Origin: Octopus vulgaris
Lineage: Eukaryota
Length of the DNA: 64,000 nt
Assembly: GCA_951406725.2 (NCBI GenBank)
Contig: OX597821.1
Span: forward strand, 14,446,001 to 14,510,000
Direction of reading: 5' to 3'
Shown: one piece after another, positions 2,670-60,053 of the stretch
Position numbering within the stretch: the stretch's first letter is position 1
How the letters are laid out: every line of letters starts with the position of its first letter
Program-made: the position numbers and the translations under genes
Notes under the pieces: generated by a model
What the model saw: the letters and a program-made list of their open reading frames with translations, nothing else
Told to the model about the DNA's origin: nothing
Database searches by the model: none

Positions 2670-3816
2670 ATAGTTACAAACAGTTCATACAACGGTAATG
2701 TTTTCTAAGCAGGTTTTAATAACATGCCTAGTGTCTGCAAGCAAACTTCAGGCTCTGTACATATGGTCTATACAAGTTATAAATCAGGAGAAATCATAAG
2801 ACAAAAAATGAGAGGAAGGTGGGGGCAAAAAGTGAAAGGGTAACAGAAACAAAAAAAAATGGTGAAAGAAGAAAAATTAGTGTTATATACCCTTTGACCA
2901 TAAAGCCATAAAGCTAGTTAATGTAGAATCAAGAGAAGGGGTCTAAAGTCTGCAACATAGCTGCTGAATATGGAGATGGTGGTATTCTCCAATTCACCAA
3001 AAGAAACTTGTCCATATATATGCATTTGCTGAAACTTTCAGATCTGGAATTTAGCAGTGAAGTGGAATTCTTTAGCTCTAAAAAGTATGTGATTTTTCAG
3101 CTACACATAAGATGCATTTCTTTAATCCATTAATATATGGCATGACTTTTTCTACACTATTCCACTTGATTTTATGTGGCATGGAATTGGTCTTTAAACC
3201 TCAAATGTGGATAGCCAACTTATTAGCATTACTTTTGTCCACGTGCTGGAAAGTAGATAGGCAGTTAGCATTTTTGAAGTCATCTTTGCAATAGTCCTTT
3301 TTGGTCACATTATCATGTAGCATTGCTGTTACATCTACTTCATATAATGCCATATGTTAATGGATCTAAAGAATGTGAGTCATGAGTAGCTGAAAGATCA
3401 TATATCCTTTTCAGATCTAAGAATTCCACCATGCTGCTGAATTGCAGATCTGAAATTTTCAGCAAATGCATATATATGGACAAGTTTCTTTTGGCAAATT
3501 GGAGAACATCACCCTCTCTGGATTGAGCGACTGTAACACAAACTTTAAACCCCTTCTGTTTATTCTGCATCAACTAACTTTGTGGTTTTATGGTCAAAGA
3601 GGGCATAATCTTAAGTCTTCACCTTTAAACCTTTCTTTTTCTATTTCTTTCACTTTTCCACTTTTTGCATCTACTTTTCTCTTGTTTTTCTCATGGTTTC
3701 TCTTGTTCCAATTTGTAACTTGTATAGGTCATATGCATTGAGCCTAAAGATTGCTTGGAGATACTAGGCATGTTATTCAATCCTACCTGGAAAACATCTT
3801 CAATGTATGTAACTAT
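2670..3816. mobile_element. Old long inverted-repeat (foldback) element, arms ~2670-3143 and ~3347-3816, degenerate HHR motifs near the outer ends
   Basis: For example ccaaaagaaacttgtccatatatatgcatttgctgaaa (~2997-3034) is the reverse complement of tttcagcaaatgcatatatatggacaagtttcttttgg (~3457-3494). Similarity extends over both arms. Confidence 0.8.
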
Positions 3817-4745
3817 GAGTAGTTGAGTAGCTCATAACTATATAACTATATTCTGTGTGCAATAAACAATACATACATATATATATATATATATAATGTA
3901 TACATATATACATATGTGTGTGTGTGGGGTGTATGTGCGTGTGTATGAGTGATGAATGTGTGTATAGATAATTCCCCATGTCAATGCATTTACATTGAGG
4001 AATAAATTGAGGTAATTGTATTACAAGTGTTTCTTTATGCATCAGTCAGGATAATAAGAGTGTGTGATTAGGTCCATTTTTATGACATTACGTGGATGAA
4101 AATAAACCACCTTCTCGAAATCCAACCAATGGTGAAGGTACTCCCAGAAAATGCTGGTCCCTATTTTTGAAACTTAGGACAACTGTTGCATGCTGAATTA
4201 CTTTTGTTTTCAAATGTACAACGAAACAACTAAGGTGGATCTAGTTTCACAATCTATGAGCTGGTTTCCTAGTGTATCTTTGTGTTGCAGAAGTGAGAGT
4301 GTATACATAGAGTATATGTATGTGTTCTCACACACTCTCTCTGTCTCTGGCACCCTCACACTCATATATTTTTATGCTTACATGTGTAAATGGTATATAT
4401 ATTTGAAACTAAATATGTATATTTAAGTGTAGCAAGTATACAAATTCAAGTGGAATATAATTGAACAATGAAGAAAGAATATATTCAGTAAGTAAATGCA
4501 GTTGAATGTGAGAAAAAAAAAATGAAAATCATCATTTATAGAGAAAAGAAGATGAAACATATATTTGGAACATGAGGTAAAATTTTATGGACTCTTAAAT
4601 TTCTGCAAGTTTAAATGACATATAAACACAAATTATTTATAACTACAAATTATGGCACCTTTAAAGTGAAGTTTAATAGTAAATTTTTTAAAAGGAGGAA
4701 GAGAAAATATCAAAAAAAAATTATGCATTATTTGGCAATGGAGAC

Positions 4746-4944
4746 AAACTTCCTACTCATAAGAACAATTTTATCCTAAAACCTATGTATGGTAGCGAAA
4801 AGAAACAAGACAGATAAGAGCGGCACCAAAAAGTGATATGTATACCTTTCAGCTAATTTCTTTGCTACCATCCATGGCTTCTACCCGACGACGATCCTTA
4901 ATTAAACCCAAAGAATAAAATTTAACTCATGAGTAGGCAAGTTT
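4746..4944. repeat. Small degenerate inverted repeat, MITE-like
   Basis: aaacttcctactcataag pairs with ctcatgagtaggcaagttt, and atggtagcgaaaagaaa pairs with tttctttgctaccat. Confidence 0.5.
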
Positions 4945-6039
4945 TAGAAAAACTTTCCCTGGAATTGCTCAGTTTTTTTTTTTAGGTAAATTTAAATAGG
5001 CCTATTATTATTATTATTATTATTATTATTATGATTATTATTGTTGTTGTTGTTGTTATTACATAATTATAATTGTTGTTGTTGTTGGAATAGTCATTAT
5101 AAGTAACATTATCATTATTAATATTAACAATTTCATAATTATTTTTTAAAACCTGTCAAATTGCAAGAAAAAAAAAAGCATAGTTTAATCAATGAGATTA
5201 ATTTAATCAAACATAAATTTAACCATAGATCATTTTCAAAATCTATAGTTGTTTCCAATCTTAAGTAGAAATAATTCAAAGCATGTATTTTATAAAGATA
5301 AGATTACATCATATGGTTATTGATGATCAATGCTTAAAAGTGAATGTCTAATGTGTAAAAATGAAAAGTTATTTTGACTTTAGACTAAAAGTGCTCAAGC
5401 AAACTAAAGCTTAGTTTAATTTATGCAACCAACATTATATTTAACAATTTTGTTACAAGTTCTACAATAAAACTATATTTATGAGTAATAAATAGATTTA
5501 TACACCTAAACAATTTGAAGTTACTTGTTTTCATGTAAATTTGAAATAAAATTGTATATTTCATATTTAAAGCGTCTACATACACATTTCTCATACACAC
5601 ATAGACTTCTCTGCTTTATGTAGTCTTCAGTCTTTCATGATATATGTGTTTGTGAACGTGAATAGATGACAGTGGTTACCAAGAAGATGAAAGAAGACAG
5701 GTGGGACAACAAAGTGATAAGATGATAGGAGAGGGAGTAACAGAAGAGAGACAGTGATAGGTAGCTATATATCAGTCGTTGGTAATATGATTGAATAGGA
5801 AACAGCATGAGCAGTGTGATGGGATAGCTATGAATATGAGTCATGACAAGTATAAGATTAGTGGTGGACAGCAACAGAGATGAACAATGGTGGGAAAGGT
5901 AAATGTCTGATGAATCATTTAAAAAAAAATGAATGATGATGTTGGTTAGTAGTAGAGAAGAATGATGGTAAGGAGTAATGAGTCTGAACATGAGTGCGTA
6001 TATATCTATGTATATATGTGTGTAGATATATATATGGAT

Positions 6040-58688: not shown

Positions 58689-59061
58689 AAGCACAATGGC
58701 CCAGTGGTTGGGGTAGCAGACTTGCTGTCGTAGGATCATGGTTTCAATTCCCAGACTGGGCATTGTGAGTGATTATTGAGTGAAAACACTTAAAGCTTCA
58801 TGAGGCTCCAGCAGAGGGTGGTGGCGAACCCTGCTGTACTCCTTCATCACAACTTTCTGTCACCCTTTCTTGTTTCTGTTGTACCCATATTTAAAAGGTC
58901 CAGCCTTGTCACACTCTGCATCACGCTGAATCTCCCCAAGAACTACATTAAGGGTACATGTGTCTGTGGAGTGCTCAGCCACTTGCATGTTAATTTCACA
59001 AGCAGGCTGTTCTGTTGATTGGATCAACTGGAACCCTCGTCGTCGTAACCGACGGAGTGCC
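58689..59061 (+). mobile_element. Diverged family B SINE
   Basis: Homologous to the 8212 and 33054 copies. Confidence 0.85.
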
Positions 59062-59497
59062 GTAGTATAAATATGTATATGTGTGAATGTATGTATGTAC
59101 ATAAATATGTGTATATATATATATATATATATATATATATATATATATATATACATATAAATATATATACATACATGTAAATATATATACATACATGTAA
59201 ATATATATACATACATATAAATATATATACATACATATAAGTATATATATATATATATATATATATATATAGGGAGAATTCACAAAAAAAAACAAAAGAT
59301 GAAGACAGGTGGTGTAGACAACAAACAGATGTATTAGTTTAATGTCTTTAATGTTTCAAGCCTATGTTCTTCCACAGAAAGAAATAAGGAGAGAAAATAA
59401 AGAATGTGTAGTAGCTAGCGATCTATCATAAAGAATGTGTAGTAGCTCTCGGTTCAATAATAGCATGAGTGAGGGGTCTAAGGCAGGCCGTGCTTGA

Positions 59498-60053
59498 GTG
59501 TGCATATGTTAAATAAAACAAAATAACAAGGCCAAAGAAATTTGATATTCCTAGGACATTTATAAATAGAAAGGTAGTCTTACAGCTGTTTCAGAGAAAT
59601 AAATGATATTCCATCATCAGAGACAAGTTAAAAGAGCCTCAATATAAACAATTAGTAGAGTTCCTATTTTTAGAAGAAGTTATTCTGGAGATATATATAC
59701 AAGAAATTAGATATAATGCAGAAAGTATAAAAGGAAAATAGGAAAAATAAAAATACATGCTGGATGTTAAACCTGGTCTTCTTTAACATCCAACATGTAC
59801 TTTTTCTTTTTCTTTTATACTTTCTGCATTATATCTAATTTCTTGTACATCTCTCCCACTCCAGAATAACTTCTTCTAAAAAAAAAAATGAACTCTTCTA
59901 ATTCCTTATATTGAAGATCTTTTAACTCATCTCTAATGATAGGGTGTCATTTATTTCCCTGAAACAGCTGTAAGGCTACCTTTCTATTTATAAATGTCCT
60001 AGGAATATCATATTGCCTTGGCTTTGTTATCTCATTTTGTTTAACATGCACAC
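59498..60053. mobile_element. ~555-bp palindromic element with an HHR motif on each arm
   Basis: Arms are reverse complements about an axis at ~59776 (tggatgttaaa / tttaacatcca); HHRs at 59577-59624 (-) and ~59929-59976 (+). Confidence 0.88.
59577..59624 (-). ncRNA. Type I minimal hammerhead ribozyme with intact core, sense to the Kv2 pre-mRNA
   Basis: Minus strand reads GTCT-CTGATGA-tGGAATA tcatt TATTTCtct-GAAAC-AGCT-GTA-AGAC; helix I GTCT/AGAC, palindromic helix III ACAGCTGT. Confidence 0.72.

What the first reader, a model, noticed from the sequence alone, without database searches (positions are those of the whole stretch)
2670..60053. Recurrent architecture: six unrelated palindromes, each with two outward-facing minimal hammerhead ribozymes
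Seen: six inverted-repeat insertions (2670-3816, 9121-9540, 14198-14786, 38151-38352, 41150-41479, 59498-60053) share no evident primary sequence. Each has a helix I-CUGANGA-helix II-GAAA-helix III-NUH-helix I motif on the minus strand of the left arm and the plus strand of the right arm. Helix III is tiny and, where well preserved, self-complementary (ACCATGGT, ACAGCTGT, AATATT). Established: minimal type I HHRs with palindromic helix III are hallmarks of Penelope-like element (PLE) pseudo-LTRs and animal retrozymes, cleave as dimers, and PLE insertions often carry an inverted 5'-truncated copy. Inference: these are several families of ORF-less PLE-mobilised ribozyme elements that standard annotation would call MITEs or unknown repeats. 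Six in 60 kb would imply very many genome-wide.
Basis: partly seen in the sequence, partly recalled or inferred. Interest (0 to 1): 0.9.

Follow-up and report, generated by a model that had tools for sequence, protein, structure and literature searches.

The report
Penelope retrotransposon ends bearing hammerhead ribozymes
The six palindromes are head-to-head insertion scars of Penelope-type retrotransposons, whose ends carry small self-cleaving RNA motifs; the arrangement is known, but one family here has a tRNA-like head and other, protein-free repeats bear the same scar, which points to Penelope enzymes as their carriers.

Summary
All six palindromes are real. Each family's consensus holds a minimal type I hammerhead facing outward, although only 6 of 12 window arms keep an intact core. 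A seventh was missed (28492-28942). They are not fixed ORF-less units. Longer copies of A, B, C and D run into Penelope-like (PLE) RT/GIY-YIG coding sequence, and F does so indirectly. Palindrome A itself holds decayed endonuclease codons. Across the genome, arm pairs face outward 81:1. A 3' tail sits on one arm in 61 of 71 pairs and never on both. This is the published PLE signature and excludes MITEs. Two things go beyond the papers I found. Family C has a tRNA-like A/B-box head in the PLE 3' UTR where most copies begin. E and three random loci are ORF-less, circularly permuted hammerhead units inserted head-to-head; one also shows the one-sided tail. That is structural evidence that PLEs mobilise retrozymes. 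Cleavage was not tested.

The parts
2650..3870 (.). Family A palindrome: two 5'-truncated PLE 3' ends joined head-to-head; decayed hammerheads start at 2751 (-) and 3744 (+); ends approximate (TA-repeat flanks)
3093..3347 (-). Decayed GIY-YIG endonuclease coding sequence in the left arm of A
   Evidence: tblastn with the L181 PLE protein, E=1e-6
3350..3502 (+). Decayed C-terminal endonuclease coding sequence in the right arm of A
   Evidence: tblastn E=7e-6
9121..9572 (.). Family B palindrome: PLE 3' UTR only; U3-A8-core hammerheads at 9243 (-) and 9411 (+), both cores intact; ~30-nt tail on the right arm only; 18-nt central gap whose sequence matches hammerhead helix II
14198..14786 (.). Family C palindrome: 3' end of a PLE; hammerheads at 14283 (-, NUH lost by a 3-nt deletion) and 14658 (+, core mutated); (AAT)n spacer 14524-14585; ~33-nt tail on the right arm only
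14379..14523 (.). tRNA-like heads of family C (box A, box B) at 14379-14459 (-) and 14457-14523 (+); the palindrome centre lies at the start of the head
   Evidence: no Rfam tRNA hit
28492..28942 (.).
   Evidence: 71 candidates; consensus of 16 copies plus the 2 window arms has the full motif
38151..38415 (.). Family D palindrome: PLE 3' UTR end; hammerheads at 38241 (-, mutated) and 38262 (+, intact core); ~60-nt tail on the right arm only
41150..41640 (.). Family E palindrome: part of an ORF-less, circularly permuted ~455-nt hammerhead unit (retrozyme-like); cores at 41249 (-) and 41373 (+) intact, helix I mutated; outer end of the left arm missing
59440..60056 (.). Family F palindrome: end of a PLE with a >1-kb pyrimidine-rich 3' UTR; hammerheads at 59620 (-, intact core) and 59933 (+, mutated); tail on the left arm only
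96..1280 (-). Host gene, downstream exon frame: Kv2/Shab-type potassium channel (S1 to C-terminus)
   Evidence: ORF; Rfam K_chan_RES 528-641, E=5e-11; family name from my own knowledge of the protein
61810..63027 (-). Host gene, upstream exon frame (N-terminus, T1 domain); all seven palindromes lie in the ~60-kb intron between the two frames
   Evidence: single-intron reading inferred from protein continuity, splice sites not mapped

Best explanation
Each palindrome is one integration event by an endonuclease-containing Penelope-like element (PLE). The PLE protein cuts AT-rich DNA and reverse-transcribes its RNA from two nearby internal start sites downstream of the pLTR hammerhead. Two cDNAs grow 5'-ward, usually stop after 150-700 nt, and end up joined head-to-head. 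This gives two outward-facing hammerheads and a tail (the stretch between the two start sites) on one arm only. SHOWN here: PLE ORFs upstream of the arms, outward orientation, one-sided tail, variable junctions, both arms from one template lineage. TAKEN from published in vitro work on another PLE: cutting of both strands, two start sites, predicted dimer. INFERRED: that two-ended priming rather than fold-back makes the second arm (about 60:30). A, B, C, D and F are truncated ends of autonomous families; E is a non-coding hammerhead unit using the same machinery in trans. The genomic copies are dead and decaying. In any read-through transcript, such as the Kv2 pre-mRNA, the antisense arm is made first and should trap the sense ribozyme in a long duplex, so these copies should not cleave their host RNA (inferred).
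For: PLE coding sequence on the hammerhead strand upstream of: A (about 11 other copies plus the window arms); B (L066, L069, L075); C (L097, RVT_1 E=2e-9, plus endonuclease; 12 of 12 ORF-end copies continue into the head and 10 of 12 to the hammerhead); D (L123, L124, L144, L146 at 59-82% aa to the L181 protein); F (L250, L252 through a shared 3' UTR at 77-79%). L181 is a young D-related element: intact 717-aa ORF, inverted copy 99.85% identical, partial tandem, and a tail equal to the start of the 5' UTR. Its Atlas neighbours are HTH_animal/DUF8422/GIY-YIG/RVT_1 clusters at 0.96-0.99. Orientation 81 outward vs 1 inward pair (includes a few duplicate pairs). Control SINE pairs are unbiased, 4/5/6/2. 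Tail on one arm 61, both 0, neither 10 of 71 pairs. In E the two arms share subfamily variants (0.074 vs 0.023+-0.006 per site, 0 of 500 permutations). Hairpin energies -104 to -324 kcal/mol. Literature: PMC3846280, 10.1101/2021.04.23.441226, PMC11167929, PMC4209133.
Against: Only 79 of 180 loci show an inverted partner within 1.5 kb (70 of 171 without the window's own loci), so the second arm is optional. F's link to an ORF is two-step. One F copy (L174) has a different endonuclease remnant upstream. No autonomous partner is identified for E or G. Pfam gives no family for the full L181 protein at E<0.1 and only a weak GIY-YIG hit (E=0.017) for its C-terminus. The tail lies on the longer arm in 26 pairs, the shorter in 13, and arms are about equal in 22, a bias that fold-back would also give. 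No cleavage was measured.
Confidence: 0.9

Rival explanations
1. Same elements, different route to the palindrome: one cDNA is made, folds back on a short inverted repeat or microhomology and copies itself (self-priming, as proposed in PMC3846280).
For: Many family-C junctions fall on a native ~12-bp palindrome at the start of the head. Arms are within 20 nt of each other in 22 of 61 one-tailed pairs, and the tail is more often on the longer arm (26 vs 13). Arms share template variants.
Against: Fold-back predicts the tail on the longer, first-made strand. 13 pairs (some confounded by nested insertions or AAT length) and the young L181 element have it on the shorter arm. The anole PLE primes on both DNA strands in vitro (PMC11167929).
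Confidence: 0.3
2. One reading: all six are dedicated ORF-less non-autonomous ribozyme elements whose unit is the palindrome.
For: True for the unit of E (period 380-464 nt in 6 loci, no ORF seen) and for three other families in the random sample (L182, L184, L194). Partly true for C if head-initiated copies come from their own transcripts.
Against: PLE ORFs lie contiguous with A, B, C, D and F ends. Palindrome lengths and centres differ between copies. More than half of the copies are single-armed.
Confidence: 0.1
3. MITEs or fold-back DNA transposons with a chance hammerhead-like motif.
For: Long terminal inverted repeats, no ORF in most copies, insertion into TA runs.
Against: Ends are unequal by 30-110 nt in 61 of 71 pairs and never both tailed. 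Single arms are the majority. RT and GIY-YIG lie upstream. The motif keeps its pairing across seven unrelated families and is 14 vs 0 in shuffles. No TSD was evident by eye at the window ends, though TA flanks would hide a TA duplication.
Confidence: 0.02
4. The palindromes are kept by the host as regulatory elements (ADAR substrates or cleavage switches) of the Kv2 pre-mRNA.
For: All lie in one intron of an ion-channel gene; each can form a 100-560-bp duplex on the gene's strand.
Against: Arms are 15-30% diverged from each other with unrepaired core mutations, as for neutral decay. The same families are scattered over all chromosomes. The apparent all-palindrome excess here is an ascertainment effect, because the families were chosen for having a palindrome.
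Confidence: 0.05

Closest known systems
EN+ Penelope-like elements with inverted pLTRs and a tail (PMC3846280; 10.1101/2021.04.23.441226; PMC11167929)
   Same: RT + C-terminal GIY-YIG ORF, 5' truncation, partial tandems, head-to-head inverted copy, one-sided tail, AT-rich targets.
   Different: At least five unrelated families at high copy number; tails up to ~110 nt (F); the tRNA-like head in the 3' UTR of family C; a strict 61:0 one-tail count, which I did not see quantified in the passages read.
Minimal PLE hammerheads (PMC4209133)
   Same: Short helix I, palindromic helix III, U3-A8 core variant, and pairs 100-700 bp apart on opposite strands (reported in Schistosoma mansoni).
   Different: A, D, F and G carry an extra nucleotide between helix II and GAAA and 8-9-nt helix III palindromes; helix II of A, E and G is extended to 50-70 nt; the young L181 element has C at position 4 in all 4 copies.
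Animal non-LTR retrozymes (PMC7229834; 10.64898/2026.07.22.740005)
   Same: ORF-less 350-600-nt units with one type I hammerhead each, in head-to-tail, more-than-unit copies (E, L182, L184, L194).
   Different: Here they carry minimal rather than canonical hammerheads and sit in PLE-type head-to-head insertions with a one-sided tail. Those papers argue for PLE mobilisation from co-occurrence and phylogeny; word searches for 'inverted', 'head-to-head' and 'tail' found no such description.
Schistosome Sm-alpha/Sj-alpha SINE-like hammerhead repeats (as reviewed in PMC6765202)
   Same: Pol III-type promoter followed by a hammerhead, as in family C.
   Different: In C the head is a fixed part of an autonomous PLE's 3' UTR, copies are dispersed single or inverted insertions, and Pol III transcription is untested.
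Octopus tRNA-derived SINEs OK/OR1/OR2 (title only, in the reference list of PMC10886601; names recalled)
   Same: tRNA-derived heads in an octopus genome; the head-initiated part of C could be one of these named SINEs.
   Different: The paper is not held, so identity could not be checked.

Membership tests
EN+ Penelope-like element | ORF with RT and C-terminal GIY-YIG endonuclease upstream of the terminal repeat | tested here: met
   C: RVT_1 E=2e-9 plus endonuclease. D relative L181: intact 717 aa. A, B: thumb/endonuclease parts. F indirect. Not met for E; not tested for G.
EN+ Penelope-like element | pLTR formed by partial tandem; inverted 5'-truncated copy joined head-to-head | tested here: met
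   L181 structure; 81 outward vs 1 inward pair
EN+ Penelope-like element | 3' tail on one end only | tested here: met
   61 one-tail, 0 both, 10 neither in A, B, C, D, F; same pattern by end positions in 4 E pairs
EN+ Penelope-like element | RT phylogeny within PLE clades (Penelope/Poseidon, Neptune, Nematis) | not tested
   No reference set on hand. A Cys-rich linker in B and D and none in C suggests Neptune/Nematis vs Penelope/Poseidon (criterion from 10.1101/2021.04.23.441226); inference only.
Minimal type I hammerhead | Catalytic core with helices I and II and a palindromic helix III | tested here: met
   Seven family consensuses. Intact cores in 8/32 A, 30/38 B, 16/57 C (biased by the query's deletion), 24/39 D, 21/33 E, 29/39 F arms.
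Minimal type I hammerhead | Self-cleavage as a dimer | not testable with these tools
   No read-end pile-up in two fragmented RNA-seq runs of a related organism, which cannot exclude cleavage.
Non-LTR retrozyme (family E; L182) | ORF-less unit with one hammerhead, head-to-tail, more-than-unit copies | tested here: met
   E: period 380-464 nt, partial tandems only, no full dimer seen. L182: 359-nt unit, 5 + 2 ribozymes, longest ATG ORF 30 aa.
Non-LTR retrozyme (family E; L182) | Expressed as circular RNA | not tested
   The one read-laying run was used on family C.
tRNA-derived SINE (family C short form) | tRNA-related head with A and B boxes | tested here: inconclusive
   Box A and box B motifs ~35 nt apart (motifs recalled). 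Relaxed ARAGORN of 19 heads. No Rfam tRNA hit.
tRNA-derived SINE (family C short form) | Copies start at the head; no Pol III terminator inside | tested here: met
   34 of 48 head alignments start within -18..+19 of the head's first base, 22 within -10..+9. No T4 run in 268 nt, vs 2-6 in the other five families (C is also less T-rich).
tRNA-derived SINE (family C short form) | Pol III transcription and propagation independent of the full-length RNA | not testable with these tools
   The same head is present in ORF-bearing copies (12 of 12; 2335 candidates), so RT arrest or fold-back at the head explains the pile-up equally well.
MITE / DNA transposon | Equal terminal inverted repeats, fixed length, TSD | tested here: not met

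The most novel reading that the evidence does not exclude
In this genome PLE enzymes drive a whole economy of non-coding hammerhead RNAs. (i) Protein-free circular retrozymes are integrated by PLE RT-endonuclease, as their head-to-head, one-tailed insertions show. (ii) A PLE that captured a tRNA-derived Pol III promoter in its own 3' UTR spawns a self-transcribing, ribozyme-bearing SINE of some 35,000 insertions, a Penelope-dependent SINE. The outward-facing geometry self-silences the ribozymes inside host introns.
Probability: 0.4. Interest if true: 0.7.

Novelty: new variant of a known kind. Interest (0 to 1): 0.5.

Why it matters
The core finding is a known architecture that standard libraries miss (no Rfam hammerhead hit): roughly 1e5 intact minimal hammerheads in a 2.8-Gb genome (19 in 400 kb), many of which could be mistaken for MITEs. 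It matters more as a natural data set on how PLEs integrate, which is still unresolved: a 61:0 one-tail rule, fixed orientation and young intact loci constrain the two-start-site model. It also offers a structural test of the open question of which enzyme mobilises animal retrozymes, and a candidate Penelope-dependent SINE. Tens of thousands of 100-500-bp perfect-at-birth hairpins are also a likely source of intronic double-stranded RNA in an animal group known for heavy A-to-I editing (recalled; not tested).

Tried and rejected
1) Indels concentrated at the cleavage site as a fossil of in vivo cleavage: rejected. Only C shows a recurrent 3-nt deletion there (5 of 31 unselected arms, one being the query; 22 of 29 query-selected arms). 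A, B, D, E and F show 0-2. It lies in a GT-rich microhomology and can differ between the two arms of one insertion, so slippage suffices. 2) The two arms come from two different RNAs paired by the dimeric ribozyme: not supported; E arms share subfamily variants. B and C are uninformative. 3) The ORF upstream of F copy L158 is F's own: wrong; it belongs to a nested D-related element. 4) An antisense ORF in F's long upstream region: no open frame. 5) Abundant window SINE pairs (e.g. 14985-15991) as further PLE palindromes: tail-to-tail, no hammerhead core, no orientation bias. 6) Opposed CTGATGA words at 27142/27186: no palindrome listed, no motif. 7) Enrichment of palindromic over single copies in the Kv2 intron: not claimable (ascertainment). 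8) RNA evidence: no RNA holder listed. Two raw RNA-seq runs of coded organism B (about 6% read) gave 10,364 and 8,415 family-C reads, equal on both strands, a twofold depth step at the head and no pile-up of ends; this says nothing on Pol III or cleavage. 9) PDB sequence search of the L181 protein: nothing below E=0.12. 10) Three look-ups of earlier scan findings returned nothing. 11) Not read, not held: the Lunse/Breaker hammerhead-dimer paper and the 1994 octopus SINE paper; both bear on novelty of the motif variants and of family C. No supplements were read; those of PMC4209133 may list mollusc motifs. The random sample stopped at 400 kb.
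Full report
SETTING. The window is G000:C8:14446001-14510000 of a 2.8-Gb genome, 33% GC and rich in TA microsatellites. From size, contig numbers up to C30 and repeat landscape I infer an octopus; no tool named it. Two minus-strand frames (96-1280, 61810-63027) encode a Kv2/Shab-type channel (name from my own knowledge; Rfam K_chan_RES hit), so all features lie in one ~60-kb intron.

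OBSERVATION. Self-BLAST confirms all six inverted repeats (71-85% between arms). I call them A (2670), B (9121), C (14198), D (38151), E (41150) and F (59498). In the window the ribozymes are decayed: 6 of 12 arms keep the core nucleotides and 4 of 12 pass a structural descriptor. Window-level shuffles are only modestly exceeded (3 vs 0-3; 2 vs a mean of 0.15). The case rests on the families. Own-genome searches gave 276 (A), 1108 (B), 2475 (C), 1949 (D), 577 (E) and 1696 (F) candidates, lower bounds, with 40 scored and 30 fetched each. These copies are biased toward the window's version. Every consensus has helix I, core, helix II, GAAA, a self-complementary helix III and NUH, with different sequences but kept pairing (for C the intact form is). 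B uses the U3-A8 core. A seventh palindrome (G, 28492-28942) also resolves into a full motif in a consensus of 16 other copies plus the two window arms. In 40 evenly spaced 10-kb stretches a generic descriptor found 19 intact motifs against 0-3 in 8 shuffles (14 vs 0 at score >=13). They come from 11-12 insertions and about ten families. That scales to roughly 1e5 motifs genome-wide, with wide error. The six window families have 9-11 insertions in the same 400 kb, 3-4 times sparser than in this window; C alone has 5, or about 35,000 genome-wide.

WHAT THEY ARE. Following the longest copies upstream of the ribozyme leads to PLE coding sequence. A stretch fetched beside L158 (L181) holds a young element with an intact 717-aa ORF, an inverted copy 99.85% identical and a partial tandem. 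Its Atlas neighbours carry HTH_animal, DUF8422, GIY-YIG and RVT_1, though Pfam here is nearly blank. Its ribozyme and tail are D-like. With its protein as query, D copies L123, L124, L144 and L146 show the ORF at 59-82% identity upstream, and about 11 A copies show endonuclease remnants. Palindrome A in the window itself holds such codons in both arms (3093-3347, 3350-3502). B copies L066, L069 and L075 carry a different thumb-linker-GIY-YIG frame that ends about 100 nt before the ribozyme. C copy L097 carries RT (RVT_1, E=2e-9) and endonuclease. F has a >1-kb pyrimidine-rich upstream region, and relatives of that region (77-79%) follow a PLE ORF on the same strand in L250 and L252; this link is indirect. 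E has no ORF: sequence downstream of the ribozyme reappears upstream with a period of 380-464 nt in 6 of 30 loci, a circularly permuted unit.

INTEGRATION SIGNATURE. An inverted partner lies upstream of the ribozyme in 79 of 180 loci and downstream in 2 (9 loci are the window's own). By arm pairs the count is 81 outward to 1 inward (a few pairs are counted twice). Close pairs of an abundant control SINE show no bias. Each family has two discrete 3' ends. In 71 pairs of A, B, C, D and F the longer end (tail) is on one arm in 61, on both in 0 and on neither in 10 (one duplicate locus dropped, E not included). In L181 the tail is the start of the 5' UTR that follows the pLTR. Junctions vary from copy to copy, mostly with short overlaps or few added bases. 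All 3' ends lie well downstream of the cleavage site, so integration does not start at the ribozyme cut.

LITERATURE, AND WHAT I SAW OF IT. PMC4209133 (parts 1-3 of 4: results, discussion, methods): minimal PLE hammerheads, the U3-A8 core, and pairs 100-700 bp apart on opposite strands in Schistosoma. PMC3846280 (passages): inverted pLTRs, optional 31-bp tail, head-to-head arrangement, self-priming proposal. 10.1101/2021.04.23.441226 (passages): inverted truncated copy and a tail usually on one end. PMC11167929 (parts 1-2 of 4, whole main text): the protein cuts and extends both strands, RT starts at two internal sites that delimit the tail, a dimer is predicted, and the ribozyme is protein-assisted and dispensable for insertion in vitro. 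PMC7229834, PMC6765202, PMC6962438, PMC10886601 (passages); 10.64898/2026.07.22.740005 (part 1 of 5 plus passages). The architecture is therefore known.

MECHANISM. Most likely a PLE ribonucleoprotein cuts AT-rich DNA and both ends prime cDNA synthesis, one from each start site; both stop early and the cDNAs join head-to-head. The 61:0 rule fits one proximal and one distal start per event. Both arms derive from one template lineage (E: 0.074 shared variants per site vs 0.023 permuted; weaker signals in D, F and A; none in B and C). Fold-back of a single cDNA remains a rival. The tail is on the longer arm in 26 pairs, the shorter in 13, and arms are equal in 22, and C junctions favour a native short palindrome; but L181 and the shorter-arm cases do not fit simple fold-back. 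Because the ribozymes face outward, any read-through transcript makes the antisense arm first and should bury the sense ribozyme in a duplex of -104 to -324 kcal/mol. Two arms on opposite strands also cannot form the dimer. I infer that the copies are inert in the Kv2 pre-mRNA.

WHAT IS NEW. (1) Family C has, about 30 nt after the stop codon, a 75-nt head with box A and box B motifs, then (AAT)n, the ribozyme and the tail. 12 of 12 copies chosen by their ORF end continue into the head, so it is part of the autonomous element. Yet 34 of 48 head alignments begin within -18..+19 of its first base, several single-armed copies begin at it, and the sense strand has no T4 run. In RNA reads of a related organism, several hundred loose ends at the same point read as the inverted head. 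This fits a Pol III SINE form moved by the PLE. Against it: no Rfam tRNA hit, only 2 of 19 relaxed ARAGORN calls, 2335 candidates with the ORF end, and RT arrest or fold-back as an equal explanation. Four searches listed no paper whose title or abstract start describes a tRNA-headed PLE; only some of the listed papers were opened, schistosome Sm-alpha is a precedent for Pol III plus hammerhead, and the 1994 octopus SINE paper could not be read. (2) ORF-less units carry the PLE scar. L182, from the random sample, is a 98-99% identical array of 359-nt units (5 ribozymes on +, 2 on -), head-to-head, with a ~40-nt tail on one end, in a TA run, and a longest ATG frame of 30 codons. L184, L194 and E are similar. 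The two retrozyme papers name PLEs as candidate mobilisers from co-occurrence and phylogeny, and word searches in them found no inverted or tailed insertions.

VERDICT. The tRNA-headed family and the PLE-scarred retrozymes raise it to a new variant. Interest 0.5.

Noticed in passing
L181:1993-8272 (G000:C23, ~50430700-50436970): Very young PLE insertion with an intact 717-aa ORF, inverted copy (99.85%) and partial tandem, nested beside an F copy. All four ribozyme copies have C instead of U at core position 4.
   Followed up: partly
L182:2097-4768 (G000:C1, ~20002100-20004770): Young ORF-less 359-nt hammerhead tandem array in a head-to-head insertion with a one-sided ~40-nt tail.
   Followed up: partly
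L184:4712-6009; L194:7450-8350; L209:6878-9564: Further hammerhead units (periods about 600, 400 and 1340 nt) with more-than-unit copies; L184 and L194 are head-to-head, L209 is a direct tandem.
   Followed up: partly
window 7945-8115 (-): Weak GIY-YIG-like remnant (tblastn E=0.006), possibly an old single-armed PLE in the gene's sense orientation; no ribozyme seen downstream.
   Followed up: partly
window 14985-15991, 36925-38111, 41977-42956, 39524-42414: Inverted pairs of an abundant ~420-nt SINE-like repeat (58 hits in 400 kb); the pair read is tail-to-tail, with no hammerhead. Possible double-stranded RNA sources in the Kv2 intron.
   Followed up: partly
window 27518-27732, 29784-30048, 63505-63658: Three more short palindromes without a hammerhead core; 27518-27732 looks like two SINE-like heads back to back around a TA run.
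   Followed up: no
window 24099-24445, 26568-26726, 29212-29508: Dispersed repeat family containing 61-66-bp tandem units (also at 10750, 17864, 21063, 35261).
   Followed up: no
window 53735-54034 (-): 99-aa frame resembling the C-terminus of a mariner-type transposase (recalled resemblance).
   Followed up: no
window 9306-9325: The centre of palindrome B contains a short piece matching hammerhead helix II, suggesting a template switch at the junction.
   Followed up: no
L209:2-1112 (-): 370-aa open frame resembling a beta-1,3-galactosyltransferase (recalled resemblance); outside the hammerhead tandem in that locus.
   Followed up: no
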